From the sequence record PZ445515.1: a DNA stretch of 64,000 nt; one strand, 5' to 3'. Below the pieces are notes generated by a model. The model was not told the origin of the DNA, searched no databases, and worked only from the letters and a program-made list of their open reading frames with translations. The number at the start of each line of letters is the position of its first letter. The first letter of the stretch is position 1. Source of the DNA: a phage. Shown here piece after piece: positions 1,760 through 63,518 of this stretch. A program made the position numbers and the translations under genes.

Positions 1760-1768
1760 TCTGCCTCC

Positions 1769-2197
1769 TTAAGCAGTTAAACCTGGGATCATATACCCGA
1801 AACGTCGAAGTTTCTGAATCCCCTCATTTACTTCTTCCGGTGAGTAAGACCAACCATAACGTTCATTAACCTGAAAACCAGGAGATTCACTAGTTTTATA
1901 GTTAACAACAAGGCGATGCTTAGCAGGCATAAACAGCTTATAATTTAACGCAAAAACTAAGCCCATTTCGTCTAACTCTTTCCAGCCCACAATCTCTTCA
2001 AGACCATCCTCTACCTGCACAATTAAACCAATACAGGGGGCCTCATCAATATCATCTTTAAAAGCAAAGGAGATTTCGTTATTCTCACACCATATTTTCA
2101 AGGAGTTAATAGCCTCATTATACAGGCTAGCCGGTAGAGTACGCCAAAAGTTAACCAAAATTGGGTTAGCTTCTTTAGAGAATACATTATTGAACAT
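1769..2197 (-). CDS. hypothetical protein, paralog of adjacent 1367-1759 gene
   Basis: 142 aa ORF; tandem duplicate of upstream gene by shared motifs. Confidence 0.6.
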   Translation of the reverse strand: MFNNVFSKEANPILVNFWRTLPASLYNEAINSLKIWCENNEISFAFKDDIDEAPCIGLIVQVEDGLEEIVGWKELDEMGLVFALNYKLFMPAKHRLVVNYKTSESPGFQVNERYGWSYSPEEVNEGIQKLRRFGYMIPGLTA

Positions 2198-2199
2198 AT

Positions 2200-2706
2200 T
2201 TACACCTTAAATTGTTGTAGGGCTTTACACATTTCAAGATCTGGACTAAATTCTAGCATATAGCTAACAGCCATTAAATCTTGAAGATTTATTCCAGTTC
2301 TACCGTTGACTATAACCGTTGGATACTGGTACATCATAGCACCAGCGTCATCCAGAACACACCAATGTTTGAGCTTATGCTTTTCAACGAAGCGAAGAAC
2401 AGAATTACCCCTAGATAATCCACCCCCAGTAAAATCCGTTGTACCAAGAAAACGATCGATAAGACCTAATCCGGTCATAATCTGAACGTTCTCCATCTCA
2501 TTCCTGACAGAGAACCATGAGGATACTCCAACAATCATTATCGGAGAAGGACGAATAAAGTCCTGAAAAGCCTTGAGAAGCGGTTTGAAAACCCAATCAC
2601 TTCCAAAGAAAATCTTTTCGTCATCAGGTGCATGATGGTGGGAGATGCTCGAATTGAGCACCCCATCAATATCTAGAAAAATAATTGGAGTATTACTTAT
2701 TTCCAT
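2200..2706 (-). CDS. HAD-superfamily phosphatase-like protein
   Basis: 168 aa; HAD motif I FLDIDGVL near N-terminus and VLDDAG motif IV-like. Confidence 0.5.
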   Translation of the reverse strand: MEISNTPIIFLDIDGVLNSSISHHHAPDDEKIFFGSDWVFKPLLKAFQDFIRPSPIMIVGVSSWFSVRNEMENVQIMTGLGLIDRFLGTTDFTGGGLSRGNSVLRFVEKHKLKHWCVLDDAGAMMYQYPTVIVNGRTGINLQDLMAVSYMLEFSPDLEMCKALQQFKV

Positions 2707-2902
2707 TTTTGTTCCTTTCTAAGAACGTATCATACTCAACCGTATCAACATATATAACACCATAGTCATCGGATTTATAGTCCATCTCCCACAGCTCACA
2801 GCGATAGCACCAACTACCATCCGCCCATACAAATATATCATCGGGGTGTGTATATACAGATTTAACTATGGACATATCTGTTTCCCTTGCTTCTCGACAC
2901 AT
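2693..2902 (-). CDS. hypothetical small protein
   Basis: 69 aa ORF bridging HAD and Sir2 genes with short overlaps. Confidence 0.3.
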   Translation of the reverse strand: MCREARETDMSIVKSVYTHPDDIFVWADGSWCYRCELWEMDYKSDDYGVIYVDTVEYDTFLERNKNGNK

Positions 2903-3698
2903 AAGGTCTACCCTCTAAATGAGCTTCTACACGAGCAATAAAATCAGGGTCACTGAAAGCATCTACCGCACCTTTACTCCAGTAAGGGATACCGCGTTCC
3001 TCCAGCTGGTACATCTCACTACGAGTCATACCTTGATAGCCCGGTTCCGCTGCGAGGGCACTATCATAGTAGTTAACAACCATAAGTTTCGCAGCAGTCA
3101 AACTAAGAACAGGAAATAATTCCCAGTAGAAGTTAATTACTTGGTTAGAGCAACCAACCACAATGATCATATCTTGACTGGTAATACCATCAAAAACATT
3201 ATACATTTCTGCGTATGCAGGAGCATGCTCTCCAAAGAAGATTACATTAGGTTTAACCCATTTATAATCATCTGGATCAATAGAATTGTATCCTACATCA
3301 ATAATCCGTTTATTGCTACTATTGTAGCTATCAGCTACAACAACCTCTTTTAAATATCCGTGAATATGCAGAATGTCACTATGTGGAACGCCAGCACGCT
3401 CAATAAGGTCATCAACGTTGGTAGTCAAGTTTACTATTTGACCTGGATATTGTTTATACCATTCACCAATACGCAAATGCGCAAGATTGGGTTCAACAGT
3501 TTTTAGCTCTTCACGACGCTTGTTGTAAAACATATGGGTTTTATGATAAAAATTACCACGAAAGGCATGAATATTACATACTTCTTCTAGATCATAGTCA
3601 TCCCACAATGCTTTACCACTAGCAGTATCAGTACGGAAGGCTCGTACACCACTTTCAACACTCAAACCTGCACCACTAATAATAATTAATCTACGCAT
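2862..3698 (-). CDS. Sir2-family (sirtuin-like) NAD-binding protein
   Basis: 278 aa; N-terminal GAGLSVESGVRAFR matches sirtuin GAGIS-SGIP-FR motif, later HIHG; no Zn CxxC pairs seen. Confidence 0.6.
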   Translation of the reverse strand: MRRLIIISGAGLSVESGVRAFRTDTASGKALWDDYDLEEVCNIHAFRGNFYHKTHMFYNKRREELKTVEPNLAHLRIGEWYKQYPGQIVNLTTNVDDLIERAGVPHSDILHIHGYLKEVVVADSYNSSNKRIIDVGYNSIDPDDYKWVKPNVIFFGEHAPAYAEMYNVFDGITSQDMIIVVGCSNQVINFYWELFPVLSLTAAKLMVVNYYDSALAAEPGYQGMTRSEMYQLEERGIPYWSKGAVDAFSDPDFIARVEAHLEGRPYVSRSKGNRYVHS

Positions 3699-3912: not shown

Positions 3913-4105
3913 AAAGTTTCTCCTCTAGTTCCATGATACGATTTTCATAAGAGGCACGCAACTTTTCAATTGCCAGCGCACGCACTGTAACCTCATTAGA
4001 ATTAATAGCTAATTGGGCCAGATCTTCCGTTTCCATACGTCCGTTGTAAATTAAGCGATATTTAAGGTGTTTTACATTCTTAGTCATTATTAAACTCCAC
4101 TGCAA
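3881..4105 (-). CDS. hypothetical protein
   Basis: 74 aa ORF, coiled-coil-like, overlaps neighbours. Confidence 0.45.
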   Translation of the reverse strand: MQWSLIMTKNVKHLKYRLIYNGRMETEDLAQLAINSNEVTVRALAIEKLRASYENRIMELEEKLYGILEADATR

Positions 4106-4460
4106 CTGTTTCTAGGTCTTCGTCAGAAAAACTAGAGTATATATCTTTAAGATACTGTTTAATACTCCAAGTAATATCTTCGTACCCATTGGGGCTACGT
4201 TGGTATACTTTTAACACTCTATTATACACAAATTCAAGATTACATTTTACTTCATCTCTGTCTTCATCAAACAAGCAATATGGATTATAAGGTGATACAT
4301 CTAGATTTGTTCCCACCCAATCGCCAATAATGGTAGGGTATGCAACACCCTCTATATGCGAGTAATCACCTGTGGCAGCAAAGACAGCCTCAGCAATATC
4401 ATCCACACCCAGATGGAAACCACCACAAGTAGATTCAACTATATAGGGCTTTAATTCCAT
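4080..4460 (-). CDS. hypothetical protein
   Basis: 126 aa ORF downstream of nrdD; no radical-SAM CxxxCxxC so not NrdG. Confidence 0.5.
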   Translation of the reverse strand: MELKPYIVESTCGGFHLGVDDIAEAVFAATGDYSHIEGVAYPTIIGDWVGTNLDVSPYNPYCLFDEDRDEVKCNLEFVYNRVLKVYQRSPNGYEDITWSIKQYLKDIYSSFSDEDLETVAVEFNND

Positions 4461-4559: not shown

Positions 4560-6434
4560 TTATTTAGCTCGAATATCCTGATGTTTCACCCTGCCCATAA
4601 CCTCATGCTGTTTGCCTGGGTTAAATGGACGAGCACCTGGATTTCCAAGATACCCACAAACTCGACGAGTTACTTCAAGAGTTTCGGGGTCGTGATTACC
4701 ACAGATAGGGCACTTAAACCCGTCTTCGGATGCTATTGTTTCACCTAAGAATCCACATTTACCACAAGAATCTACTGGAGTATTAATACCGAAGTAATGA
4801 ACCTTACTAGCAGCATAATTAATAACCCATTCCAGTGCATCTGGGAATCGTTTCATATCCGGTAGTTCTACATAGGAAATACATCCACCAGAAGCAATAG
4901 GAGTAAAGTTAGATTCATAATCAAATTTCACATTGGGAGCAACTTTACGTTCTACATCAAGGTGGTGCGAGTTAGTGTAGTATCCTTTAGACAGAATATC
5001 TTCATGCTCTGGGAAATATTCACGGTCTAGACGACAAAAACGGTCACATAGGGATTCTGATGGTGTAGCATACAGGCTATAACCTAACTTAGTTTCTTCC
5101 TTCTTCTGATCGACTCTATCCCGCATGTACTGCAATACACGCTGAACAAACTTGATGCAGGTCTCGGACATTGTGTCTACATCTTTGCCAAACATGAACT
5201 GTAGCATTTCATGGCAACCAATATACCCTAGAGATACAGAAGCACGGTTATAGAAATGATCGAATACATATTCATCAGGCTCCAAGCGCAGTCCAAAGGC
5301 TCCTGACATATAGAGGATGGGCGCAGCTTTAGCTTGAATGTATTTTAAGCGATCAACTCTCCACTCCAATGCTTTTAACGCTGTATCCACACGTAGCTCA
5401 AGTAAATCAAAGAATAGGTCAATATTTCCTTCAGCTTCGATAGCAATTCTAGGCAAGTTTACAGAAACAACACCTAAGTTATTACGACCGGCAGTTTCAC
5501 CATCTTCTGTAGCAGCTAAGAATGAACGGCAGCCCATAGAAACTTTATAGTCACCAGTAACTTCCACAACCTTATCATAGCTGATATAATCTGGATACAT
5601 ACGTTCAGCAGTACATTTCATAGCTAACTTCTTGATGTCATAATTAACATCTCCTGGTTTCATGTTAACGCCATCACGAAGTACAAATACCAGTTTCGGG
5701 AAGATAGCTGTACGTTTATTGATACCTAAGCCATCCATGCGTACTTTCAGTATTGCTTTCTGTACTAGACGTGCTTCCCAAGAAGTTCCTAGACCAAAAC
5801 CAAAGGTAATAAATGGACTCTGACCATTAGAGTTGAACATGGTATTGATTTCATATTCTAGACCCTGACAGGCATCATAAACTTCTTTTTCAGTCATCTC
5901 CGTAGCCATTACTGATGCTTTGGCCTCATCTTTAGTCCAACGTTTTGCAAACGCATGATTTTTGTCATAGGATTTACGAACATAAGGAGCTAATACTTCA
6001 TCAAGGCGATCCACGGAAGTACCACCATACTGATGGGAGCTAACCTGTGTGATAATCTGAGCTGTAATAGCTGCCGCAGTAGTGATAGAGTTTGGAGTGC
6101 TAATTTCAGCATTACCAACCTTCATACCATTCTTCAACATATCTTCCAGAGCTACCAGACAACAATTAGTCATGCCTAATGCAGCATAATCAGCATCATG
6201 GAAATGAATATCCCCAATCATATGAGCATTTCGAATCTGAATTGGCATTTCTTCTAGAATCAGATACTTACTCAATTCACCTGCAAGCATATCCCTCTGT
6301 GTAGGGAAACGTTCTGAGGGTTTATTGGCATTATTAAACAGCAGCTCTTCATCTGCTGACCCTTCGATAATCTCTTTGCAGTTTCTAATTAACGCCTGCA
6401 TTTCTTTATACTTTAGTTCTTCATTGCGATTCAT
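4560..6434 (-). CDS. nrdD: anaerobic ribonucleoside-triphosphate reductase (class III)
   Basis: 624 aa; C-terminal glycyl-radical motif RVCGYLG, Cys-rich C-terminus, overall NrdD-like. Confidence 0.9.
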   Translation of the reverse strand: MNRNEELKYKEMQALIRNCKEIIEGSADEELLFNNANKPSERFPTQRDMLAGELSKYLILEEMPIQIRNAHMIGDIHFHDADYAALGMTNCCLVALEDMLKNGMKVGNAEISTPNSITTAAAITAQIITQVSSHQYGGTSVDRLDEVLAPYVRKSYDKNHAFAKRWTKDEAKASVMATEMTEKEVYDACQGLEYEINTMFNSNGQSPFITFGFGLGTSWEARLVQKAILKVRMDGLGINKRTAIFPKLVFVLRDGVNMKPGDVNYDIKKLAMKCTAERMYPDYISYDKVVEVTGDYKVSMGCRSFLAATEDGETAGRNNLGVVSVNLPRIAIEAEGNIDLFFDLLELRVDTALKALEWRVDRLKYIQAKAAPILYMSGAFGLRLEPDEYVFDHFYNRASVSLGYIGCHEMLQFMFGKDVDTMSETCIKFVQRVLQYMRDRVDQKKEETKLGYSLYATPSESLCDRFCRLDREYFPEHEDILSKGYYTNSHHLDVERKVAPNVKFDYESNFTPIASGGCISYVELPDMKRFPDALEWVINYAASKVHYFGINTPVDSCGKCGFLGETIASEDGFKCPICGNHDPETLEVTRRVCGYLGNPGARPFNPGKQHEVMGRVKHQDIRAK

Positions 6435-30748: not shown

Positions 30749-30778
30749 TTTGCTTTCTCTCTTATTTATTGTTATAAT
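30749..30778 (+). promoter_or_regulatory. T5-type early promoter
   Basis: TTGCTT -35, 18 bp, TATAAT -10. Confidence 0.6.
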
Positions 30779-30808
30779 ATTTATATAAATTAATGAGAGG
30801 GAAGCCAA

Positions 30809-31102: not shown

Positions 31103-31308
31103 TGAGGATTACTTTTACAGAAAAGATCATGAGTAATGGTGTTATGATCATTACCGCATGGGATGGTAATCAGTGGTGTAGTGTTTCAGGTATTAAGCCT
31201 GAAGAACAAACACTAGAAAATATCTCAAAGATTAAGCGAAGAATGGCAGAACGTGCACGACTTCCAGGTGCACCTAGAAATGGCAAACGTTCTGCTGCAA
31301 AATGTTAA
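31081..31308 (+). CDS. hypothetical protein (start 31081 or in-frame ATG 31102)
   Basis: 75 aa ORF overlapping upstream gene end. Confidence 0.45.
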   Translation: MLRRVAIMRITFTEKIMSNGVMIITAWDGNQWCSVSGIKPEEQTLENISKIKRRMAERARLPGAPRNGKRSAAKC

Positions 31309-31309
31309 T

Positions 31310-31383
31310 GCTTCGGTAGCTTAGCGATCTAAAGCACTCGGCTGATAACCGAGAGATCGGGGGTTTAAATCCCTCCCGGAGTA
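31310..31383 (+). tRNA. tRNA-Ile (anticodon GAT)
   Basis: Acceptor gcttcgg/ccggagt, anticodon stem ctcgg/ccgag loop CTGATAA, atypical T-loop TTTAAAT, CCA encoded. Confidence 0.75.
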
Positions 31384-31400
31384 CCAAATTAAGGTTATGT

Positions 31401-31559
31401 ATGGAAGATATTGATAAACTTGCAAAAATATTTGCTGAACTTTCTGATATAGAAGTCTCAGAGAACTCTAGAATAGATATGTTTATTGACCAATATAGAG
31501 AAGGACTTATCAGTAAGAAAGATCTTCTAGATCTAACCTATAAAGAATTAACTAGTTAG
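31401..31559 (+). CDS. hypothetical small protein
   Basis: 52 aa ORF; TAG stop overlaps 5' end of next tRNA. Confidence 0.4.
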   Translation: MEDIDKLAKIFAELSDIEVSENSRIDMFIDQYREGLISKKDLLDLTYKELTS

Positions 31560-31626
31560 TTGGCAGAGTGGTTATGCACCTCCTTCATACGGAGCGACTA
31601 CAGTGGTTCAAATCCACTACTAACTA
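31554..31626 (+). tRNA. tRNA-Met (anticodon CAT)
   Basis: Acceptor agttagt/actaact, anticodon loop TTCATAC, T-loop TTCAAAT, CCA encoded. Confidence 0.75.
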
Positions 31627-31666
31627 CCATTAAAAGAGCTAGAGATAGCTAACTTTAGGAGCAGCT

Positions 31667-31861
31667 ATGTTAACAATTAAAATAATGTCAGCCAAGAATG
31701 GGGAACAGATTCATACAGGCAAAAGTGTAAGCTTTAATCCTAGAAATAAAAGATTGGCTATAGTTGGAGTAGACCAAGCCATCTTTTTAAAAGAAGATGA
31801 AGTAGCATATGTCATGAACCAAACTGGTAAGACAGTTTCCGTATACTATGGAAAAGTATAA
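31667..31861 (+). CDS. hypothetical protein
   Basis: 64 aa ORF. Confidence 0.5.
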   Translation: MLTIKIMSAKNGEQIHTGKSVSFNPRNKRLAIVGVDQAIFLKEDEVAYVMNQTGKTVSVYYGKV

Positions 31862-31903
31862 AGAATAAATAGCTGAGCCAAATTCTAACATCGGGGAGAT
31901 CTA

Positions 31904-32272
31904 ATGAAAGCATATCAAAATCTTAAATCTGGCGTAATTAACCTTGTTCATGAAAATCAGATTATTCAGCTATACTCCGACAACGGTGAACTTAAACAGA
32001 AAGTTCTAGTTGAAGATCTAGAAGGTATCACACCACAATTCGATCCCGAAGCCTTCCGTGAAGTCAAAGTGGAAGTCGCCCCTCAAATCGAAGGTGGTCA
32101 GCACCTAAATGTCAATGTGTTAAGCTGTGATCAGCTTTTGGATGCGCAGAAACATCCTGAAAAATATCCTCAGTTGACCATCCGTGTCTCTGGTTACGCT
32201 GTTCGATTTAACGCACTGACTCGTGAACAACAGAACGACGTTATTAGTCGTACATTTACTCAGGCGATGTAA
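31904..32272 (+). CDS. grcA: autonomous glycyl radical cofactor (GrcA/YfiD-like)
   Basis: 122 aa; [10 protein letters not shown]...[23 protein letters not shown] matches YfiD/PFL C-terminal glycyl-radical domain. Confidence 0.8.
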
Positions 32273-32353
32273 TGGGGTTTGGGTACGATTTCTCCGAACT
32301 ACGTGAGGTAGTCGAGCAAACTCCGTTTATCTCCCAAGTTTTAGGAGAAATGT

Positions 32354-32668
32354 GTGGATCGAGCATTAAGACGCCATCACCGGCAACGTGTGAAGAACAA
32401 CCGCAAGAAGTATTGGACAGTCTTTCCACATGAAGAAAGCCCTAAGCGGTTAGGTATTATCACTACTACTCCTTGCATCTGTTCTTGTTGGATGTGCGGG
32501 AACCCTCGCAAATATTATAAGAATAGTAAAGCAGGCATGAAAATTTCGGAGATTAGGAAAATGGAAGCAATGATTATGGGCATCTCAAATGATGAATTTG
32601 ATGGCTTTGTAGGATTCGGAGAAGGAATCAGCTCAGGCTATTCCGAAGATGAACGCCCCGATCTGTAA
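32354..32668 (+). CDS. hypothetical Cys-rich protein
   Basis: 104 aa, GTG start after AGGAG; CICSCWMC cluster. Confidence 0.45.
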   Translation: MDRALRRHHRQRVKNNRKKYWTVFPHEESPKRLGIITTTPCICSCWMCGNPRKYYKNSKAGMKISEIRKMEAMIMGISNDEFDGFVGFGEGISSGYSEDERPDL

Positions 32669-32677
32669 TTAATAACA

Positions 32678-32713
32678 AACCCCAGCTATTGAATAAGTAG
32701 TCTGGGGTTTTTC
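32678..32713 (+). terminator. rho-independent terminator
   Basis: Hairpin aaccccag...ctggggtt followed by TTTCTG. Confidence 0.65.
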
Positions 32714-32789
32714 TGTATAAAGGTACATAATATATGTATAATAAAATTCATCCACATTAGGTTAATTTAAAAGACTTAATGGAGGTAAT

Positions 32790-33137
32790 ATGAGCCGTAC
32801 TTATCGTAAACAATCTGGTGATCAGTGGTGGAAGTCTAAAGAACACTTCTCTCAAGAATATTCTTTCTTCAAAGAAAATGGCTACTGGATTCGTGTTATT
32901 TATGCCAAATCCTGGGACGACATCAAAAAAGAAATGAAGGAAGCAACCATTCGTAATGAGAAAAAGGATGGTTATAACTGGAATTCCATTAGTAAGAATG
33001 TTAAGTGGCACTCTAATAAAATGGTTCGTCAAGGGAATCGTCAAGAACTTCACCGCGTGATGAAAGATCCAGAAAATTACGACTATAATCGCGATCATGA
33101 CATGCGTAAGCGTGGGTTATGGTGGTGCTATGACTAA
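32790..33137 (+). CDS. hypothetical protein
   Basis: 115 aa ORF with RBS GGAGG. Confidence 0.55.
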   Translation: MSRTYRKQSGDQWWKSKEHFSQEYSFFKENGYWIRVIYAKSWDDIKKEMKEATIRNEKKDGYNWNSISKNVKWHSNKMVRQGNRQELHRVMKDPENYDYNRDHDMRKRGLWWCYD

Positions 33138-33154
33138 ATTCTGAAATAATTCAT

Positions 33155-33183
33155 TTGCTAAACCTCTCTTTTCTTGCTATAAT
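33155..33183 (+). promoter_or_regulatory. T5-type early promoter
   Basis: TTGCTA -35, 17 bp, TATAAT -10. Confidence 0.6.
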
Positions 33184-33213
33184 ATGTTTATAAATTGATG
33201 AGAGAGGTTTGAA

Positions 33214-33495
33214 ATGAAAACTCGTCTAGACTGTGCTGTTCATGTTCTTGAGCATGATGTTGCTGGAACCTGTATGTCTTACCACGAAGCAGGTCGTTTA
33301 ATTAAAGAACGTGTGGCAGATGTGTGCGGATTGAAGATTACTGCTGAGGAAGCTGATGATCTTTTAGGTCAAGCACTGGAGAAAACCGAAATGTTCCTCT
33401 GCGATTCTTGTTCTTGGTGGTGTGAAGCTCACGAACGTTCTTTCAATGATTATGATGTATGTCGTGATTGTAGTGGGGAGGATGAAGATGAATAA
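33214..33495 (+). CDS. hypothetical Cys-rich acidic protein
   Basis: 93 aa; CDSCSWWC...CRDC; acidic C-terminus EDEDE. Confidence 0.5.
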   Translation: MKTRLDCAVHVLEHDVAGTCMSYHEAGRLIKERVADVCGLKITAEEADDLLGQALEKTEMFLCDSCSWWCEAHERSFNDYDVCRDCSGEDEDE

Positions 33496-52413: not shown

Positions 52414-52644
52414 TTACATTAAAACAATTTTTGCAGCTTGTTTTTTAGTACAGTGTTCCGCTTTCAGCGTGTCCAGCAAAAAGCCCGCCGTTTGCTGATC
52501 GATTTTATCGGCGTTGTATAGTTCTTGGATGGTGTTATAAGTTTTAGCAATGCCGAACTCCTGCACCATTTCATGAATAATGGCGCGGTTAGATACCCAG
52601 CCTTGAGCGGTGAACAGATGAGTAGCAGAAGAGTAAGCAACCAT
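52414..52644 (-). CDS. hypothetical protein
   Basis: 76 aa ORF. Confidence 0.5.
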   Translation of the reverse strand: MVAYSSATHLFTAQGWVSNRAIIHEMVQEFGIAKTYNTIQELYNADKIDQQTAGFLLDTLKAEHCTKKQAAKIVLM

Positions 52645-52747
52645 TTTAAGCCTCCAAATTTTTGGGAAATTTTTAATCCACCGTTTTGGTGTAAAGGCAT
52701 TATAACAAAAAAGCCACCATAAAAGGCGACCTTTACAAAACTTTACA

Positions 52748-53242
52748 TTAAACTACTTGTAAGGACTCAACATTGAAACATCGTTTCAATTCGTCATGCA
52801 AAACAGCGTATTCCTCCCATCGGGTATTATCAGGAATATAAACAAGCTGTTTTAATCGATTTGCGTATATTACCGCTTTGTTACCAACTATCTCGACGCC
52901 GCCATATTTAATAATTAATTTCATGACGGAATTAATAGGATCGCCGCCGTTTACATATGTGCCGGATTTACTTAGCTGATAATGATAAAGGCTTGCGTAT
53001 ACGTTTTCATTTTCATACCATTCGCCAGTATCCTCGTCTTCATAGCCATCGCTACCAAAACGAGAAGCATTATCAATAGCCATTTCATGAGCGAAAGCGT
53101 CCAGATCCGTACCAGCAGGAACAAAATATTCCTCGGTGTTCCCTTCCCCGCAATAGCCAGTATGGCAATCGACTAAAATGATCATATCGTGTTTAGCCGT
53201 GCTTACTTCCCCTAGCGAGAAGCCGTATTTTTCATCAGCCAT
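52748..53242 (-). CDS. hypothetical protein
   Basis: 164 aa ORF with RBS. Confidence 0.55.
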   Translation of the reverse strand: MADEKYGFSLGEVSTAKHDMIILVDCHTGYCGEGNTEEYFVPAGTDLDAFAHEMAIDNASRFGSDGYEDEDTGEWYENENVYASLYHYQLSKSGTYVNGGDPINSVMKLIIKYGGVEIVGNKAVIYANRLKQLVYIPDNTRWEEYAVLHDELKRCFNVESLQVV

Positions 53243-53307
53243 TAGTTAGCCTCCTATTAATTAACAAGGGAATAGTAAAGCGGGGTAACAATCCCCGCTA
53301 AATATTA

Positions 53308-54318
53308 TTACTCGCTTTCGGTGTTAGTGGTAAAAGTAGAAATATCGATACCTTTTACCATTTCATCAATCATTTCAGCGATGTTAAAACTTTGCACCAT
53401 TTCTAACATTGCCGCTTCCATAGCCGCCCCTGCTACCGCTTTCGCTTTCTGGTTAGTCGGTGCGTACTGGTCAACCGCTACACTCAGCAGGTTAGCAATC
53501 ACTACTCGACCAATAGGCGTATCGATATAACCTTTGATCATGAACGGTGCTTTTTTAGCCGCTACTTTCGTGATTTGAGTTAATGCAATCTTACCCGCTT
53601 CCAGTTTTGCAGCGTTTACAGCAGCGGATTTATTAGCGGCAACGATGTTAGCAATCTTGGTCATGGTATTTTTTCCTTTGTTTTCAGTAGTTTGAGTATT
53701 AACGTTTTGAGTGTTAGAATTTACAGCATGGTTTTCTACGCTGTCAATAATCTGATCTTCATCTTTCCAGAAAGAAAAACCAGCGCTTTCTATATCCCCA
53801 TCATAAATATATGGGTATAGCTCCCGTGGTAACAAAAAATTACCATCGCCATCAAAAGCCATTATAGCGGTATATTGAGATCCGTCGTTATCCGGCTTAT
53901 GCCATCCAGCAGGTAAATACTTCCAGATAACATCTAAAAATCCCTCAATGCTAGAAAGTCCATTTATCAGATCAAGCCCAATAAGCTCGAAACCATTTAT
54001 ATTAAATGATTGACGGCCTGAATTGCTATGATACGCAACAATATTATTGCCCTGCGCAATAATAAAATCGGCATCCGGCCCCGCTCCCCTGCCTGTAAAG
54101 ATATGGCAATCCCGATTATATAAAACAAGCGTTGCCCCTTGTTTATATAACGGCAAAAAACCATCCATATCATAAGCGTCATAATCATCAAAAAAGTTTT
54201 GATGAATAGTTTCAGCCTTGTTAATAAAATGTTTAATGCTGGTTGACTTGCTACCATCCAGCAGGTTGCGCAATGCACCTTTTAAAACGGTGGCATTATC
54301 AGGTTTATACAGCCTCAT
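53308..54318 (-). CDS. hypothetical protein
   Basis: 336 aa from ATG 54318 preceded by GAGGGAGG; first gene of leftward operon. Confidence 0.55.
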   Translation of the reverse strand: MRLYKPDNATVLKGALRNLLDGSKSTSIKHFINKAETIHQNFFDDYDAYDMDGFLPLYKQGATLVLYNRDCHIFTGRGAGPDADFIIAQGNNIVAYHSNSGRQSFNINGFELIGLDLINGLSSIEGFLDVIWKYLPAGWHKPDNDGSQYTAIMAFDGDGNFLLPRELYPYIYDGDIESAGFSFWKDEDQIIDSVENHAVNSNTQNVNTQTTENKGKNTMTKIANIVAANKSAAVNAAKLEAGKIALTQITKVAAKKAPFMIKGYIDTPIGRVVIANLLSVAVDQYAPTNQKAKAVAGAAMEAAMLEMVQSFNIAEMIDEMVKGIDISTFTTNTESE

Positions 54319-54600
54319 TTGTTCGGCCTCCCTCGTTAATCGGTGAGTGAATGATATAGATATTTGTTCACTAGGGGCAAGAAAAAAGAAAATGTTTTTT
54401 ATTCCTTGCCTAGCGCCTAGTTTTATGCTAACCGCGCAGCGGTGCAATAAAGAGCAAAACACGGCGAAGCCACCAGGGCGACGGGTGAAGGCTTTACTTT
54501 AATATTACCCCACCGCATTTAGTTCGTTAGAAAGCGTTTTAGGCCGCTTGAAATTGATTGCAGTTGTTAACACTACCTTTTTACCCTGTATATTTATACA

Positions 54601-55020
54601 GTAGGATAACCTGTGGATAAGTCTGTGTAAAAGTCCTTATATCGCCGCCTATCGTGTCAAATTATTTTGTGCTGTGGAAAACATTGTGGATAACTTAAAT
54701 GATAGTGGTTCTCACTTAGACCGATGATTTCTTATAGTTATTATTTCTCATTAATTTATATGTATATTATATATCATGAAATAGTTAGTTAGCTAATGAG
54801 ATTTTCCGTGATTAATAGTCTGCTAATAATTTAAGCCGTTACAATCCACCAGCATGATTATCATCCTAGCAATTATTAGCCTGCTATCTTTCTGATGCAT
54901 ACTAACAAATAAAAGTCAATTAATTTATTTTATAAAATAAGTAGTTATCCACTGGAAAATAAAAGTCAAGTGGATAACTAGGAAAATTTCATTTTTGCTT
55001 TTGGGGATAAGTTATCAACA
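54601..55020. promoter_or_regulatory. DnaA-box cluster II in divergent intergenic region
   Basis: TGTGGATAA at 54612 and 54685, TTATCCAC 54945, GTGGATAAC 54970, TTATCAACA 55012; very AT-rich. Confidence 0.55.
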
Positions 55021-55423
55021 AGGCTAGAATGCGTCTAAAACGCCCTAGAACGCGATGAAGTTTTTAGCCATCCCATCATAAGGGGGCACGCCGTTTATCG
55101 CTGCCACGAGCTTTTTAGATTTTGTCAAGTAGGGCAAAGCAAATATAAATGAAAAAATTACTTGCCTATTTGCTTTATTTTGTGGTATTCGCGCGCCCGT
55201 TTCTTTTAATTTTAGGCCGTCGCCGCACGCCATTCGGTGGATCATGTCTTTACGTTTCTTTACAAAAATAAGGTTGCGCCATTTTTGGTATTTGCTATTA
55301 TTTATCTCGTAGGGCGGCAATGACGAACTACACGGCGGGAAGTTTACCGCCACGCTCTTTAAAAATTGGGTATATCTTAAAGCCTATCGGCGGTAAACTT
55401 ATCTATTATAAGGAATCGACGAT

Positions 55424-55627
55424 ATGAAACAAACTTTATTGATCACTGGTAAACCTAGCAAGGCACTGGATAGCGAAACTAAAAAATTGTTGACAGTAGC
55501 GCAAAGATCGGTAAAATACCGATTCACGCAGTACAAGAAAGGCCGCCAGCAAGGTTTAGAAATGATCTGGCGAAACATTATGATTGACTTGAAAGAAAAT
55601 CATAAAAAACTGCAAAAAATTGTTTGA
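55424..55627 (+). CDS. hypothetical protein
   Basis: 67 aa ORF. Confidence 0.45.
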   Translation: MKQTLLITGKPSKALDSETKKLLTVAQRSVKYRFTQYKKGRQQGLEMIWRNIMIDLKENHKKLQKIV

Positions 55628-55853
55628 CAACCTAGCCGATAGGTTTTAAGATGTACCCAGTTCGATAAGAGCGATAACTTGATAAAATTTGACGGTCGGT
55701 GCTTACCATAATGCGCCCCGCCCCCTAACGGGATATAGCGGCCTACATGGAGTTCTTTAAATTGATTAAACTGGCGAGCGGATTGTTACTTATTACCTGC
55801 TACCTTCTAGCAGGTAATGCGGAACAATCCCCTAAATAACTGGAGTTTATATT

Positions 55854-56105
55854 ATGCAAAACGTTATTACCGCGCCTAAAATTGGTCAATCCGTCTTTAT
55901 TCCTTTCGTTACTAAAACGGATGAATTAACCGGAAAAGCCGAACGTATTAAAGGTGCGGCGCTTATGCCGTTCGATACAATCGACGCGGTATATGCTGAA
56001 AATGAACGCAGTAACAACGGCAAGCCGATTTATAACGTTCGCGTTAAATCCGGCGACGCTGTAAAAGTTATCCAGCGTAACGAAAAATGGGAAGCGGTGG
56101 CATAA
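55854..56105 (+). CDS. hypothetical protein
   Basis: 83 aa ORF with RBS. Confidence 0.5.
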   Translation: MQNVITAPKIGQSVFIPFVTKTDELTGKAERIKGAALMPFDTIDAVYAENERSNNGKPIYNVRVKSGDAVKVIQRNEKWEAVA

Positions 56106-56377
56106 AAATAACCTTCTTTAACTGGTATAAGCACCGCCACAGGTGAACATATCAAGCTACCGTGGCAATTGTGAGCGGCAAATAAAGCGGCTTAAATAGC
56201 GGCTAATATATTCTAAATAGAATAGCTTTAAAGTGTTAACCGAATATACTTGAACTTGCGCGGCGGGTAGTTATTTCTAGAATAACTGAACTCAAGACAA
56301 TATTAGTTGAAAGTATATTCTGATTAACATTTAGTTAATCATTAAATCCCTTAAATTAAACAAATAGGAGTTACATC

Positions 56378-56785
56378 ATGACTAACGCAAAAACCGCAAA
56401 ATTCGCATGGAATGAAGAAAACACTCAGAAAGCTGTTACCATGTACCAGCAGTTAATCAACGAAAACGGTTTAGATTTTGCAAATAGCGACGGCCTGAAA
56501 GAGATTGCAAAAGCAGTAGGCGCGGCCTCCCCCGTATCCGTTCGGTCAAAATTGACCAGTGCAAAAGCCTATCAAAAAAGCGATAAGCCGCGTAAAGTTG
56601 GCGGCGGTAGCTCTGTGCGTAAAGCTCACTATGTGCGAGTAATTGCAAAACACGCTATCGATTCCGGTATTATCAAAGACGCCGATGATCTGGCAAGCCT
56701 TGAAAGTGCTAAACTGGAAACGCTGGACGCGGTGGCGCAACTGTTAGGCGTTGCCGATGAAGTAAAACAAGCCGCAGGCGAATAA
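56378..56785 (+). CDS. hypothetical protein
   Basis: 135 aa ORF with RBS AGGAG. Confidence 0.55.
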   Translation: MTNAKTAKFAWNEENTQKAVTMYQQLINENGLDFANSDGLKEIAKAVGAASPVSVRSKLTSAKAYQKSDKPRKVGGGSSVRKAHYVRVIAKHAIDSGIIKDADDLASLESAKLETLDAVAQLLGVADEVKQAAGE

Positions 56786-56875
56786 TAGTTATACCTTGCC
56801 CCCTCACTAGAAGGGGGCAATAATATAACTGTTTAGCGATAGTTATTTTCTTCCCTTAAATCAGGAGTTTTAAAA

Positions 56876-57073
56876 ATGGTTTTCTTTCCTACTGAATCTT
56901 TAATTCTAGGCTTATTTATTATGGCGGCCTCGTTATTGTTCGCTTATTTTCAAAATGATTTAGATTCGTATTATTTTAAACGTAAATCTAAATTAGCAAA
57001 GCGTTTAGGTCTGATTTGTTTTATTGCCGCCGTTGCTTGTGGTGTTAGTTCTAGCCTAGTGCCTTTAAATTAA
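56876..57073 (+). CDS. hypothetical small membrane protein
   Basis: 65 aa, two TM segments. Confidence 0.45.
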   Translation: MVFFPTESLILGLFIMAASLLFAYFQNDLDSYYFKRKSKLAKRLGLICFIAAVACGVSSSLVPLN

Positions 57074-57163
57074 TGTTGCAAATTATAACGCCTATTATTC
57101 AAGGCGTTATATTTGGCAATATTGCCATTATTAATCTAATCCCTTTAATGGAGTTTTATTACT

Positions 57164-58834
57164 ATGATTATTTCCGCAGAAAAACAAACCGTTATCCTGA
57201 AAATGGCCGCTGACTTTAATTTCTATGGTAAACGTCTGCGCGCTACTAAACTGGAAGTCTGCGACGATATATCAAAAGCGGTCTACGATACAACGAAACA
57301 TTCAACCGCTATCTGCGACTGGCTGGAAGCAAATAAACCAGTTAAACCAAAAGCGGCAAAAGTAGCAAAAGCCATTAAAAACGATGAGCGCCCCGAAGCG
57401 GCGGGGATTGTTTCTAGTACCGTGGAACAGTGGGAAGTAAAACAAGGTAAACGCTTTATTATTACGTCGATTCAGAATAATACTTTCCCGCATAAAAACT
57501 TTTTAGCATCACTGGAGCAATTTGCTAAATATATCGGTGCTGATTTGCTTGTTTCTAAGTATATTTATAATAAAAACGGATTCCAAAATGGAGAAGGTGC
57601 GGATGGAATCAAATATGATTCCGCTTTTGATAAATATATTTGCAGCAAAAACGTGTTTTTAAATAACCGCCGTTTTGCTTTCATGGCTGAAATTAATGTT
57701 TTGCCAACCGCAGATTATCCGCTTTCAGGATTCGCAGAAACTGCAACCGCGCTCAATATTGAGGGGCTTGCGATTGGTCACGCTAAAATTACCGCTGAAA
57801 GTGTGCCAGCTTTAAAAGGTGAAGTAGTGCGCCGCATGTATTCAACCGGAACGGCAACCCTCAAAAACTACATTCAGCAGAAAGCAGGACAAAAAGCGGA
57901 AGCACTGCATAACTTCGGCGCGCTGATTGTTGAGTTCGACGAGGACGGGGAATTTTTTGTACGCCAGCTTGAAACAATGGACGAAAGCGGGGTGTTTTAT
58001 GATCTGAACGTTTGCGCTACTCCTGCCGGATGCTATGAAACATCGGGGCATGTTTTAGGCTTGCAATATGGCGATATTCATGCGGAAAAATTAGATGAGG
58101 AGTGCGCCGCCGCATCTTGGGGGCATGGCGATACTTATGGGCTTGTGGATATTCTTAAACCAAAATATCAGTTTGTACATGACGTGCATGATTTTACATC
58201 CCGCAACCATCATAACCGCGCATCCGGTGTATTCCTAGCAAAACAGTACGCCGCAGGACGTGATAAAGTTCTGGATGATCTTATCGACACGGGGCGCGTG
58301 CTGGAATCAATGGAACGCGATTTTAGTCAAACGATTATCGTAGAATCTAACCATGATCTAGCGTTATCCCGTTGGCTTGATGATCGTAATGCTAACATCA
58401 AGGACGATCCCGCGAACGCGGAACTATATCACCGCCTGAATGCTGCAATTTACGCGGCAATCGGTGAACACGACGAAACGTTCAACGTGCTAGATTATGC
58501 CTTGCGTAACGTCGCAGGTTGCGAGTTTAACGCCATTTTCCTGACCACTGACCAATCTTTCAAGATTGCAGGCATTGAATGCGGCGTACACGGTCACAAC
58601 GGCATTAACGGGAGCCGTGGCAATCCTAAACAATTTAAGAAATTGGGCAAGTTAAACACGGGGCATACGCATACCGCCAGTATTTACGGCGGCGTATACA
58701 CCGCTGGCGTAGCGGGTAGTCTGGATATGGGTTACAACGTTGGCGCGTCAAGCTGGACGCAAACGCATTTAATTACCTATGCAAACGGCCAGCGCACTTT
58801 GATTGACTTTAAGAATGGTAAATTCTTTGCGTAA
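57164..58834 (+). CDS. A1: pre-early protein A1-like (metallophosphatase-fold, host takeover)
   Basis: 556 aa, same length as T5 A1; GDIH, GHGD, SNHD, GHTH metallophosphatase-like motifs; followed by A2- and dmp-like genes. Confidence 0.7.
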   Translation: MIISAEKQTVILKMAADFNFYGKRLRATKLEVCDDISKAVYDTTKHSTAICDWLEANKPVKPKAAKVAKAIKNDERPEAAGIVSSTVEQWEVKQGKRFIITSIQNNTFPHKNFLASLEQFAKYIGADLLVSKYIYNKNGFQNGEGADGIKYDSAFDKYICSKNVFLNNRRFAFMAEINVLPTADYPLSGFAETATALNIEGLAIGHAKITAESVPALKGEVVRRMYSTGTATLKNYIQQKAGQKAEALHNFGALIVEFDEDGEFFVRQLETMDESGVFYDLNVCATPAGCYETSGHVLGLQYGDIHAEKLDEECAAASWGHGDTYGLVDILKPKYQFVHDVHDFTSRNHHNRASGVFLAKQYAAGRDKVLDDLIDTGRVLESMERDFSQTIIVESNHDLALSRWLDDRNANIKDDPANAELYHRLNAAIYAAIGEHDETFNVLDYALRNVAGCEFNAIFLTTDQSFKIAGIECGVHGHNGINGSRGNPKQFKKLGKLNTGHTHTASIYGGVYTAGVAGSLDMGYNVGASSWTQTHLITYANGQRTLIDFKNGKFFA

Positions 58835-60556: not shown

Positions 60557-60802
60557 TTAGCGCATAGAATGGTCATCAAACCTGTGTTCTGGTCTGAACT
60601 CACGGAATCTCTTCCGCGACGCCCGAGATCCGTCCGACCACTCCCGCTCAAACTCCGCACGTTTCTCGTCAAACTTCCGCTCCCTTTCCGCAATCTCCCG
60701 CGATACTTCCGCAATATATTTACGATGCTTGTTGATTGCCGCAGTTGTCCCGAAAACTCCCGCAAGTATCCCGATAATAAAAGCAATTACAATACTAAAC
60801 AT
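60557..60802 (-). CDS. hypothetical membrane-anchored protein
   Basis: 81 aa, N-terminal TM then charged tail. Confidence 0.5.
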   Translation of the reverse strand: MFSIVIAFIIGILAGVFGTTAAINKHRKYIAEVSREIAERERKFDEKRAEFEREWSDGSRASRKRFREFRPEHRFDDHSMR

Positions 60803-60989
60803 CTAATTCCCTCTCAATTTGCAGAATACGGGTGCTATCACAACGTTGCAGTAGTACTAACTTTTCTAGAATAACTTGTTGTTGTTTCACCTGAGCTTCT
60901 AGAGTTTTTAGGCGGAGATACACGATACGAGAGACAATGAGGATTACCCAGACTAATATTACTATTAGTGTAATTCCCACTTCCATCAT
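60795..60989 (-). CDS. hypothetical membrane protein
   Basis: 64 aa, N-terminal TM. Confidence 0.45.
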   Translation of the reverse strand: MMEVGITLIVILVWVILIVSRIVYLRLKTLEAQVKQQQVILEKLVLLQRCDSTRILQIERELDV

Positions 60990-61093
60990 TTACGTTTCTC
61001 CGATAGTAAGGTTTCGATTCTAGCTAAGTGATTATCTAAAATACATTGTCCAATAATCACAATCCCCAGTAATGCAATAATTACCCATTCCAT
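60986..61093 (-). CDS. hypothetical small membrane peptide
   Basis: 35 aa hydrophobic ORF, ATGA-type overlaps both sides. Confidence 0.3.
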   Translation of the reverse strand: MEWVIIALLGIVIIGQCILDNHLARIETLLSEKRK

Positions 61094-61221
61094 TAAATCC
61101 ACCCCGCCATAGCTGCTAACCAAAAACCTACGAAAATAAAGAATAAGATAGTTCCGAATCCAAAACTATTTATCCAGCTATCATATACCTCTCCACGTCT
61201 GGTCTTTCTTTTATTTGACAT
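61093..61221 (-). CDS. hypothetical small membrane peptide
   Basis: 42 aa ORF, basic N-terminus then TM. Confidence 0.3.
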   Translation of the reverse strand: MSNKRKTRRGEVYDSWINSFGFGTILFFIFVGFWLAAMAGWI

Positions 61222-61398
61222 ATCTTTCTTGCTCCAATAAATATGATATTTTAAATTATTTTATAATTTGTGCATAACCAACCATGCTTGTGACTTCCTA
61301 GAAGGACTTCTACTTTTCTTACATAGTGGTTTCTGCCAATATACCATCCAAAAAATAAAAAATTTAGTTTACTTGGATGTCTTTTTGCTTTATACTAA

Positions 61399-61665
61399 TT
61401 ACAGGTAGTTAGATTGCTCTAGTTTAAATTTACAATCACCATATTTAAGGTCAAACTGACTGAGATCCCACCATCCAAACTTAGTACGGAGCTGTACTAC
61501 TGGGAAGCGATCTCCCTTAATACGAACTTTTTGAACCTTGAGGCCGTAATGTTCTTCTCCCGCACCACCAAAAGATTTTACAAATCCAGTACAAAATGGT
61601 TTGGGAGCAGGTGCACAACCAGATAACATAACTGCGGCAACTAGTGCAATCACAAACTTTTTCAT
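61399..61665 (-). CDS. llp: Llp-like lipoprotein (receptor-blocking superinfection-exclusion candidate)
   Basis: 88 aa; signal peptide with lipobox LSGC; divergently adjacent to pb5-like gene as in T5 llp/oad. Confidence 0.6.
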   Translation of the reverse strand: MKKFVIALVAAVMLSGCAPAPKPFCTGFVKSFGGAGEEHYGLKVQKVRIKGDRFPVVQLRTKFGWWDLSQFDLKYGDCKFKLEQSNYL

Positions 61666-61750
61666 ATTTATCTCTCCATTTCTAATTTATGAGTATATTA
61701 TAGCAAAATAGAGAGATGAAAGCAAATACATTTTTATAATAGGAGATTAT

Positions 61751-63508: not shown

Positions 63509-63518
63509 AGGAGGAAAT

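What the first reader, a model, noticed from the sequence alone, without database searches (positions are those of the whole stretch)
31904..32272. GrcA/YfiD-like glycyl-radical spare-part protein inside the tRNA island
The 122-aa ORF ends with the glycyl-radical signature [13 protein letters not shown] and aligns by eye along most of its length with E. coli YfiD. GrcA restores oxygen-damaged pyruvate formate-lyase. The same phage carries the glycyl-radical enzyme NrdD but no NrdG activase in this window, so the phage appears to depend on and possibly protect host glycyl-radical metabolism.
Basis: partly seen in the sequence, partly recalled or inferred. Interest (0 to 1): 0.55.

Follow-up and report, generated by a model that had tools for sequence, protein, structure and literature searches.

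The report
Phage T5 GrcA-type glycyl-radical spare part
This 122-residue gene of a T5-like coliphage is a real, conserved homologue of the bacterial "spare part" protein GrcA/YfiD that repairs oxygen-damaged pyruvate formate-lyase. It is already annotated as such in public T5 genomes, and its phage T4 counterpart was shown to do this job in 2001.

Summary
ORF 31904..32272(+) encodes 122 aa with an intact RVSGYAV glycyl-radical loop (Gly97). It matches E. coli GrcA (PDB 6owr, E 1.6e-29, 73% identity over residues 51-122) and the PflB C-terminus (77% over 61-122). Only about the C-terminal 60% aligns firmly; the first 45 residues are weakly related at best.

The window is 100% identical to Escherichia phage T5_ev212, whose record already calls the gene "putative autonomous glycyl radical cofactor GrcA". 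T5 reference genomes flagged it as T5.056/T5p055. It is 52% identical over its full length to T4 Vs.6 (Y06I), which was shown biochemically to be a PFL spare part activated by host PFL-AE. Homologues occur in 1583 phage records.

The gene is under strong purifying selection (dN/dS 0.03-0.16). It lies in a promoter-to-terminator unit with tRNA-Ile and tRNA-Met.

NrdD is present at 4560..6434(-). No NrdG or PflA homologue exists anywhere in the genome, an absence already reported for T5-type phages.

The verdict is that this is already known and of low interest. One small lead remains. In Aeromonas phage Ah1 and in Klebsiella jumbo phages the GrcA homologue sits inside the nrdD-nrdG cluster. This hints that its job is to keep PFL making formate, the reductant of class III ribonucleotide reductase.

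The parts
31904..32272 (+). grcA-like gene (homologue of T5.056 / T5p055 / T4 vs.6), 122 aa, stop included
   Evidence: annotated 'putative autonomous glycyl radical cofactor GrcA' in LR597659.1
31904..32083 (+). N-terminal half (residues 1-60). [quoted passage not shown] Residues 46-60 ([16 protein letters not shown]) match the GrcA-specific linker, not PflB.
   Evidence: dN/dS 0.09; AF2 pLDDT 53-66
32084..32269 (+). Glycyl-radical domain (residues 61-122), homologous to PflB 699-760
   Evidence: 77% identity to PflB and 76% to GrcA; dN/dS 0.03; 37 invariant columns across 22 phage homologues
32183..32203 (+). RVSGYAV loop. Gly97 (32192..32194) corresponds to PflB Gly734 and GrcA Gly102 and is the predicted radical site.
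   Evidence: lies at the tip of the predicted beta-hairpin 92-95/98-101
31887..31899 (+). Ribosome-binding region (GGGGAGA) upstream of the ATG
   Evidence: sequence
30751..30779 (+). Sigma-70 early promoter (TTGCTT, 17 nt spacer, TATAAT), counterpart of T5 promoter P11 and the likely start of the transcription unit
   Evidence: 97% identical over 66 nt to annotated P11 of NC_005859
31310..31629 (+). tRNA-Ile(GAU) and tRNA-Met(CAU), with a small ORF between them, in the same unit upstream of the gene
32354..32668 (+). Co-transcribed 104-aa basic, Cys-rich ORF (T5.055 homologue), function unknown
32680..32712 (+). Rho-independent terminator ending the unit
   Evidence: 33/33 identical to the annotated terminator of NC_005859
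4560..6434 (-). nrdD, class III (glycyl-radical) ribonucleotide reductase. It is 54% identical to E. coli NrdD and has no cognate nrdG in the genome.

Best explanation
[quoted passage not shown] It is transcribed from an early sigma-70 promoter together with tRNA-Ile and tRNA-Met. The 14-kDa protein is proposed to receive a radical on Gly97 from the host's pyruvate formate-lyase activating enzyme (PflA). It would then insert its C-terminal radical domain into host PflB whose own C-terminal domain was lost by oxygen-induced cleavage at Gly734. This restores conversion of pyruvate to acetyl-CoA plus formate. T5 degrades host DNA and shuts off host expression (own knowledge), so an infected cell cannot induce its own grcA or remake PflB, and the phage copy fills that gap in microaerobic habitats such as the gut. 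What is shown here is homology, the intact motif, conservation, purifying selection, the transcription-unit signals and the absence of a phage activase. What is inferred is activation by host PflA, binding to cleaved PflB and the physiological benefit.
For: Pfam Gly_radical 4.1e-17. The best NCBIfam hit is GrcA TIGR04365, 6.3e-35. PDB 6owr GrcA 1.6e-29 and PFL 6e-26, with every residue of [12 protein letters not shown] identical. The match to phrog_1209 is full length, and identity to T4 Vs.6 is 52%. T4 Y06I plus PFL-AE restore cleaved PFL in vitro (PMC8683613 citing Wagner 2001; PMC13450708). Residues 46-60 match the GrcA-specific linker YREVPVEV, which PflB lacks. dN/dS is 0.03-0.16 among seven T5-like phages and low in both halves. 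GC and GC3 are like other phage genes, so the gene is long resident. Its position after tRNA-Ile/Met is conserved in all seven fetched T5-like loci and in T5, between a P11-like promoter and an identical terminator. No PflA or NrdG homologue and no radical-SAM-sized CX3CX2C ORF exists in the genome. Own knowledge: the heptapeptide RVSGYAV is sufficient for recognition by PFL-AE (Frey 1994; Vey 2008).
Against: There is no experimental datum for the T5 protein. No paper mentions T5.056 or T5p055. The score of 120 bits is below the curated TIGR04365 cut-off of 170, although the validated T4 protein also falls below it at 151. The N-terminal 45 residues are the most divergent of the family, and in YfiD this region matters for binding cleaved PFL and for radical installation. 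This particular phage has Cys75 where all other homologues examined have Arg, with unknown effect. The AF2 model is of low confidence when the protein is folded alone.
Confidence: 0.8

Rival explanations
1. The biochemistry is the same, a PFL spare part, but the selected benefit is specifically to feed the phage's own class III ribonucleotide reductase. PFL is the cell's formate source, and NrdD1-type reductases use formate as their reductant. The phage GrcA would then be an accessory of the anaerobic dNTP pathway rather than of energy metabolism.
For: In Aeromonas phage Ah1 the homologue lies in nrdA-nrdB-x-nrdD-nrdG-vs.6-nrdC-nrdH. In Klebsiella phage Muenster the order is nrdD-grcA-nrdA.1-nrdG. 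Four of the 79 IMG/VR loci, three from ~350-kb jumbo phages and one from a 235-kb Aeromonas-type phage, also have nrdD and nrdG within 3 kb. All five GrcA-bearing lineages examined also carry nrdD: T5-like, T4, Ah1, Muenster and the Vibrio T5-like KIT04 (T4 from PMC3653736 and own knowledge). Most characterised class III RNRs use formate (PMC9176816). T5 NrdD is 54% identical to the formate-using E. coli enzyme.
Against: In T5-like and T4-like phages the two genes are more than 10 kb apart. NrdD is common in large virulent phages, so co-occurrence is weak evidence, and no per-genome statistics could be computed. No literature support was found. The idea is not exclusive of the best explanation.
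Confidence: 0.3
2. The protein is a spare radical domain for NrdD, either the phage's or the host's, rather than for PFL.
For: NrdD is also cleaved at its glycyl radical by oxygen (own knowledge). The gene is adjacent to nrdD in some phages. Reviews say spare parts for glycyl-radical enzymes other than PFL remain an open possibility.
Against: There is no detectable similarity to the C-terminal radical domain of T5 or E. coli NrdD; BLASTP gives only noise at E 6 or no hit at all. The loop is RVSGYAV (PFL type), not RRVCGYLG (NrdD type), and lacks the NrdD zinc-ribbon cysteines. The domain is 76-77% identical to GrcA and PflB. The T4 homologue works on PFL.
Confidence: 0.03
3. The protein is a decoy or regulator. 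By competing for PflA or by docking on intact PflB, it would down-modulate or redirect host PFL flux instead of repairing it.
For: The divergent N-terminal half could alter partner recognition. GrcA is reported to act also on full-length inactive PFL in vivo (title cited in PMC13450708).
Against: The radical domain is conserved at catalytic-grade stringency, with 37 invariant columns and dN/dS 0.03. This is what a working radical cofactor would show. A mere binder would need only a subset of these residues conserved. The T4 homologue restores activity.
Confidence: 0.05
4. The gene is a non-functional hitch-hiker, a captured host fragment kept by linkage to the tRNA genes.
For: One T5-like genome (Citrobacter phage YZU-L1) carries a frameshifted copy. 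This phage has an unusual R75C change.
Against: dN/dS is 0.03-0.16 at dS up to 0.87. The full-length ORF is intact in 30 of 30 IMG/VR T5-like loci. Homologues are present in 1583 phage records across several families. Base composition has been adjusted to that of the phage.
Confidence: 0.03

Closest known systems
Phage T4 Vs.6 = Y06I (NP_049730), autonomous glycyl radical cofactor
   Same: It is a full-length homologue: 52% identity over 1-122 and the same phrog_1209. It shares the MKAYQ start, the same size, the same RVSGYAV loop and the same dependence on host PFL-AE. It is an early or non-structural gene of a virulent coliphage that also carries nrdD.
   Different: The T4 radical domain is 95.7% identical at the nucleotide level to E. 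coli grcA and its GC3 jumps from 0.19 to 0.40, which marks a recent host-derived mosaic. The T5 domain is only 71-75% identical at the nucleotide level to grcA or pflB and has phage-like composition. T4 encodes NrdG; T5 does not. The T5 N-terminus is more divergent from GrcA. The genomic context also differs: the vs-regB region in T4 versus the tRNA cluster in T5.
E. coli GrcA/YfiD (P68066; PDB 6owr; TIGR04365)
   Same: Both are stand-alone proteins of about 14 kDa. Residues 51-122 are 73% identical, including the GrcA-specific linker and the whole radical domain.
   Different: The first 45 residues are not significantly alignable. The score is below the curated family cut-off. The C-terminal tail TFTQAM resembles PflB (TFTQSM) rather than GrcA (TFTESL). 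Expression comes from a phage early promoter instead of FNR/ArcA/acid-responsive control (own knowledge for the latter).
C-terminal glycyl-radical domain of pyruvate formate-lyase PflB (PDB 1h16, 2pfl)
   Same: Residues 61-122 are 77% identical to PflB 699-760, with the same radical loop.
   Different: The protein has no catalytic barrel and no Cys418/Cys419. TIGR01255 scores 83 bits against a cut-off of 994. The database labels 'pyruvate formate-lyase', '2-ketobutyrate formate-lyase' and 'acetyltransferase-related' seen in many T5-like records are therefore over-annotations.

Membership tests
GrcA/YfiD autonomous glycyl radical cofactor (TIGR04365, IPR011140) | Small stand-alone protein (~120-127 aa) made of little more than a glycyl-radical domain | tested here: met
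   122 aa; Gly_radical is the only Pfam domain
GrcA/YfiD autonomous glycyl radical cofactor (TIGR04365, IPR011140) | C-terminal domain homologous to PflB ~699-760 with the RVSGYAV radical-glycine loop | tested here: met
   77% identity to PflB and 73-76% to GrcA; loop identical; Gly97
GrcA/YfiD autonomous glycyl radical cofactor (TIGR04365, IPR011140) | GrcA-specific linker preceding the radical domain (YREVPVEV...), absent from PflB | tested here: met
   [11 protein letters not shown] aligns to GrcA 54-65; hhalign 85% probability, E 6e-06
GrcA/YfiD autonomous glycyl radical cofactor (TIGR04365, IPR011140) | N-terminal ~45 residues homologous to GrcA (MIxGIQITKAANDxLLNS...) | tested here: inconclusive
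   The first 47 residues alone give hhalign E 0.03, probability 1.7%. The T4 and Muenster homologues align to the model from position 17-25, which suggests distant homology through intermediates.
GrcA/YfiD autonomous glycyl radical cofactor (TIGR04365, IPR011140) | Score at or above NCBIfam's curated equivalog cut-off (170 bits) | tested here: not met
   120.2 bits. Calibration: E. coli GrcA scores 234, while the experimentally validated T4 Y06I scores only 151.1, Muenster 135.8 and Ah1 105.8. The cut-off therefore excludes the whole phage branch, including a proven member.
GrcA/YfiD autonomous glycyl radical cofactor (TIGR04365, IPR011140) | Radical installed by PFL-AE, and activity restored to O2-cleaved PFL | not testable with these tools
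   Demonstrated only for YfiD and T4 Y06I (PMC8683613)
Phage Vs.6/Y06I family (phrog_1209) | Full-length similarity to the phage family profile and to T4 Vs.6 | tested here: met
   phrog_1209 1.3e-46, residues 1-122 to profile 1-121 of 121; 52% identity to T4 Vs.6 over the full length
Pyruvate / 2-ketobutyrate formate-lyase (TIGR01255), as many records label it | ~760-aa ten-stranded barrel with catalytic Cys418/Cys419 | tested here: not met
   Only model positions 683-744 match; 83 bits against a cut-off of 994
NrdD-type glycyl radical domain | RRVCGYLG loop and preceding Cys4 zinc ribbon | tested here: not met
   No significant BLASTP hit to T5 or E. coli NrdD

The most novel reading that the evidence does not exclude
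Phage GrcA homologues may be accessories of the phage class III ribonucleotide reductase pathway. By keeping host PFL alive after oxygen exposure they would secure formate, the reductant of NrdD, and so anaerobic dNTP supply. This would explain why the gene sits inside the nrdD-nrdG cluster in Aeromonas T4-like phages and Klebsiella jumbo phages. It would also explain why all five GrcA-bearing lineages examined carry nrdD. In T5 the arrangement would be extreme: both radical proteins are phage-encoded and both activases (PflA, NrdG) are borrowed from the host.
Probability: 0.3. Interest if true: 0.45.

Novelty: already known. Interest (0 to 1): 0.15.

Why it matters
This is a textbook-style auxiliary metabolic gene. 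A virulent gut phage carries a 14-kDa repair module for a host fermentation enzyme and relies entirely on host radical-SAM activases. It matters little as a discovery. The gene has been annotated in T5 genomes since their first publication, is named GrcA in the very record this window matches, and belongs to the family whose T4 member is one of the two validated spare-part proteins. It has some practical value. Many T5-like records mislabel it as 'pyruvate formate-lyase', 'acetyltransferase' or even 'ribonucleotide reductase subunit'. The diverged T5 N-terminal half also offers a natural variant for probing the still enigmatic role of the GrcA N-terminus. The synteny with nrdDG in other phages gives a testable formate-supply hypothesis.

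Tried and rejected
- **Phage-encoded activase.** tblastn with E. coli NrdG and PflA against the window and the whole T5_ev212 genome gave only noise at E above 6. A CX3CX2C regex over all stop-to-stop ORFs of at least 80 codons found a single ORF, 32354..32668. That ORF is 104 aa, basic and Cys-rich. It has no Pfam hit and is confined to T5-like phages. It has no counterpart next to T4 vs.6. It is too small for a radical-SAM fold, so it was rejected as an activase, although its function stays unknown.
- **Dispensability from the T5 st0 deletion mutant.** The deletion lies about 5.6 kb away and the gene is retained as T5p055, so this says nothing about dispensability.
- **Literature on expression or function of T5.056/T5p055.** No papers were found. 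A general T5 transcriptome search was unproductive, and 'T5-like' combined with 'glycyl radical' gave nothing relevant.
- **Consensus promoter and terminator scan of 31200..33300.** It found nothing above the shuffle expectation. The real signals were located by homology to the annotated T5 P11 promoter and terminator instead.
- **AlphaFold2.** The model has low confidence (pLDDT 64.5, pTM 0.36), so no fold search was run on it.
- **Per-genome co-occurrence statistics of GrcA with NrdD.** These could not be computed because the search tools list at most 60 records.

Full report
**What is there.** The ORF at 31904..32272 on the + strand is real: ATG start, 122 codons, and a GGGGAGA ribosome-binding site 4-5 nt upstream. 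Its product carries one Pfam domain, Gly_radical (4.1e-17). Its best NCBIfam match is the GrcA equivalog TIGR04365 (6.3e-35, 120 bits, residues 50-122). Its best solved-structure match is E. coli GrcA, PDB 6owr (1.6e-29, residues 46-121), followed by pyruvate formate-lyase (6e-26, residues 61-122 to PFL 698-759). Pairwise BLASTP against proteins translated from E. coli K-12 gives 73% identity to GrcA over 51-122 and 77% to PflB 699-760. The stretch [12 protein letters not shown] is identical to both. The radical glycine is Gly97, codon 32192..32194. The one correction is that only the C-terminal 60% or so aligns firmly with YfiD. The first 47 residues alone are not significantly similar to bacterial GrcA N-termini in a profile-profile comparison (E 0.03). 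The whole N-terminal part reaches 85% probability, mainly through the linker [11 protein letters not shown], which matches the GrcA-specific YREVPVEVKPE and has no counterpart in PflB. That linker shows the gene descends from a GrcA-type gene rather than from a fresh pflB fragment.

**Whose genome it is.** The 2.5 kb around the gene is 100% identical to Escherichia phage T5_ev212 (LR597659.1, Tequintavirus), and 448 phage records match it at the DNA level. That record already annotates the gene as 'gcrA putative autonomous glycyl radical cofactor GrcA'. In the T5 reference genome it is T5.056, 'putative acetyltransferase-related protein, IPR001150'. In the T5 st0 genome it is T5p055, 'pyruvate formate-lyase related protein; contains glycine radical motif and acid-induced glycyl radical enzyme COG3445'. 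A translated search finds homologues in 1583 of 50,697 phage records, mostly T5-like and T4-like phages of Enterobacterales, plus Aeromonas, Vibrio and jumbo Klebsiella phages. The big protein database returns thousands of relatives, many named GrcA.

**Relation to the validated phage protein.** The T5 protein matches the phage family phrog_1209 over its full length (1.3e-46). It is 52% identical over residues 1-122 to T4 Vs.6. Vs.6 is Y06I, which together with E. coli YfiD is one of the only two spare-part proteins validated biochemically. PFL-AE installs the glycyl radical on it, and the activated protein complements oxygen-cleaved PFL (Wagner et al. 2001, as described in PMC8683613, and PMC13450708). 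The T5 score against TIGR04365 is below NCBI's curated cut-off of 170 bits. The proven T4 protein also falls below it (151 bits), as do the Muenster (136) and Ah1 (106) homologues, whereas E. coli GrcA scores 234. The cut-off excludes the phage branch as a whole and is not evidence against function.

**Evidence that the gene is maintained and expressed.**
- Among seven T5-like phages from Tequintavirus and Epseptimavirus, pairwise dN/dS is 0.03-0.16 at dS up to 0.87. It is low in both halves: 0.09 in the N-terminal half and 0.03 in the radical domain.
- All 30 T5-like copies recovered from IMG/VR are intact 122-codon ORFs.
- GC (41.5%) and GC3 (35%) resemble nrdD, nrdA and nrdB of the same phage, so the gene is long resident.
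- By contrast, the radical-domain half of T4 vs.6 is 95.7% identical in nucleotides to E. coli grcA, and GC3 rises from 0.19 to 0.40 across the gene. That is a recent host-derived mosaic.
- The position of the gene is conserved, directly after tRNA-Ile and tRNA-Met in every T5-like locus fetched.
- The window contains a counterpart of T5 early promoter P11 (TTGCTT, 17 nt spacer, TATAAT at 30751..30779; 97% identical over 66 nt). It also contains an exact copy of the annotated rho-independent terminator at 32680..32712.
- The inferred unit runs promoter, two small ORFs, tRNA-Ile, small ORF, tRNA-Met, 64-aa ORF, grcA, Cys-rich ORF, terminator.
- I found no direct transcript or protein data.
- AlphaFold2 gives a low-confidence model for the isolated protein (pLDDT 64.5). 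This fits a domain meant to fold into PFL and a partly disordered N-terminal half, as in YfiD. The C-terminal half is predicted as helix, beta-hairpin with Gly97 at its tip, then helix.

**The NrdD/NrdG part of the claim.** NrdD is at 4560..6434(-) (Pfam NRDD 2.7e-172 plus Gly_radical) and is 54% identical to E. coli NrdD. I covered the whole T5_ev212 genome with the window plus two further loci. tblastn with E. coli NrdG and PflA found nothing better than E of about 6. A CX3CX2C search over all ORFs of at least 80 codons found only a 104-aa ORF that is not a radical-SAM enzyme. The phage therefore encodes two glycyl-radical proteins and no activase, so both must rely on host enzymes. This is inference, but a well-founded one. 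[quoted passage not shown] The Vibrio T5-like phage KIT04 does have nrdG. The GrcA-like domain shows no detectable similarity to the NrdD radical domain, so it is a PFL part, not an NrdD part.

**Mechanism proposed.**
- *Shown:* homology, motif integrity, selection, transcription signals and the lack of a phage activase.
- *Inferred:* after infection of a cell that was growing anaerobically and so already contains PflB, PflA and NrdG, the early-expressed protein is radicalised at Gly97 by host PflA. It then replaces the domain that PflB loses when oxygen attacks its Gly734 radical. This keeps pyruvate flowing to acetyl-CoA (ATP via acetate) and formate.
- *Rationale:* T5, like T4, destroys host DNA and shuts off host expression (own knowledge), so the cell cannot induce its own grcA. 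This gives a reason for the phage to carry a copy.

**A lead beyond the finding.** In Aeromonas phage Ah1 the homologue sits in nrdA-nrdB-x-nrdD-nrdG-vs.6-nrdC-nrdH. In Klebsiella jumbo phage Muenster the order is nrdD-grcA-nrdA.1-nrdG. Four of the 79 IMG/VR loci (L050-L052 from ~350-kb phages and L080 from a 235-kb phage) have nrdD and nrdG within about 3 kb. Most characterised class III reductases use formate as reductant (PMC9176816), and PFL is the cell's formate source. The phage GrcA may therefore serve mainly to keep NrdD supplied. All five GrcA-bearing lineages I examined also carry nrdD. This is suggestive only. NrdD is common in large phages, the genes are far apart in T5-like and T4-like genomes, and I could not run a per-genome census. 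No paper in the library makes this link.

**Verdict.** Novelty: already known. Interest: low.

Noticed in passing
window 32354..32668 (+); overlapping ORF 32272..32433 (+): A 104-aa GTG-start ORF lies directly after grcA and before the terminator. It has a very basic N-terminus and the motif CICSCWMCGNPRKY, and it is the T5.055 homologue (phrog_4499). It is the only CX3CX2C-containing ORF in the whole genome. It has no Pfam hit and is confined to T5-like phages (93 clusters). Substitutions among T5-like phages are mostly synonymous in this frame, and an AGGAG sequence precedes the GTG. The T5_ev212 record annotates only its last 35 aa, plus an other-frame 53-aa ORF whose start overlaps the grcA stop (ATGTAATG). 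Which ORFs are real, and what the Cys-rich protein does, remain unknown. It is too small to be a radical-SAM activase.
   Followed up: partly
window 32126..32128 (codon 75 of the gene): This phage has Cys75 (TGT). Arg (CGT) is found in 30 of 30 IMG/VR T5-like copies, in T5.056, in E. coli GrcA and PflB, and in 17 of the 21 other phage homologues aligned; the remaining four, T4 Vs.6 among them, carry His, Lys or Gln at this position. It is a single C-to-T change whose effect is unknown. The same allele occurs in phage SUT_E520, whose translated copy is 100% identical.
   Followed up: partly
L016 (T4 63557..63919) versus L004 (E. coli grcA): The radical-domain half of T4 vs.6 is 95.7% identical in nucleotides (95% at third positions) to E. 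coli grcA. Its N-terminal half is phage-like, with GC3 of 0.19 against 0.40 in the radical-domain half. This points to recent recombination or gene conversion with the host gene. The T5 copy shows no such mosaic.
   Followed up: partly
L017 (Aeromonas phage Ah1), L019 (Klebsiella phage Muenster), L050-L052, L080: The GrcA homologue is embedded in the nrdD-nrdG cluster in Aeromonas T4-like phages and in ~350-kb Klebsiella-type jumbo phages.
   Followed up: partly
L101 (Vibrio phage KIT04, record 52473..58050) and L018: The Vibrio T5-like phage (Ermolyevavirinae) carries nrdG next to nrdA/nrdB/nrdD, unlike the enterobacterial T5-likes. Its grcA lies in the middle of the tRNA island, so the association between tRNA island and grcA predates the split of the two subfamilies.
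   Followed up: no
L015 (Citrobacter phage YZU-L1), locus ~1450..1827: The grcA copy is frameshifted near codon 14. Only the last 67 aa are annotated, and they are mislabelled 'ribonucleotide reductase subunit'. This could be a pseudogene or a sequencing error.
   Followed up: no
window 2200..3698 (-): Downstream of nrdD lie a Sir2-family ORF (2862..3698, Pfam SIR2 1.2e-24) and a HAD_SAK_2 ORF (2200..2706, 4e-20). Two paralogous DUF7415 ORFs follow (1367..2197). The ORF immediately after nrdD (4080..4460, 126 aa, phrog_11748) has no known domain.
   Followed up: no
window ~60600..64000: The window runs off the start of the T5_ev212 record (pre-early genes dmp, A1, A2) straight into its other end (terminase region). 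The source assembly is therefore permuted or joined differently from LR597659.1.
   Followed up: no
L093-L098 (IMG/VR contigs of 32-154 kb from human-associated metagenomes): This is a distinct group of GrcA-like genes, 49% identical over residues 9-122, on uncultured viral contigs. There is no nrdD or nrdG within 10 kb. The lineage was not identified.
   Followed up: no
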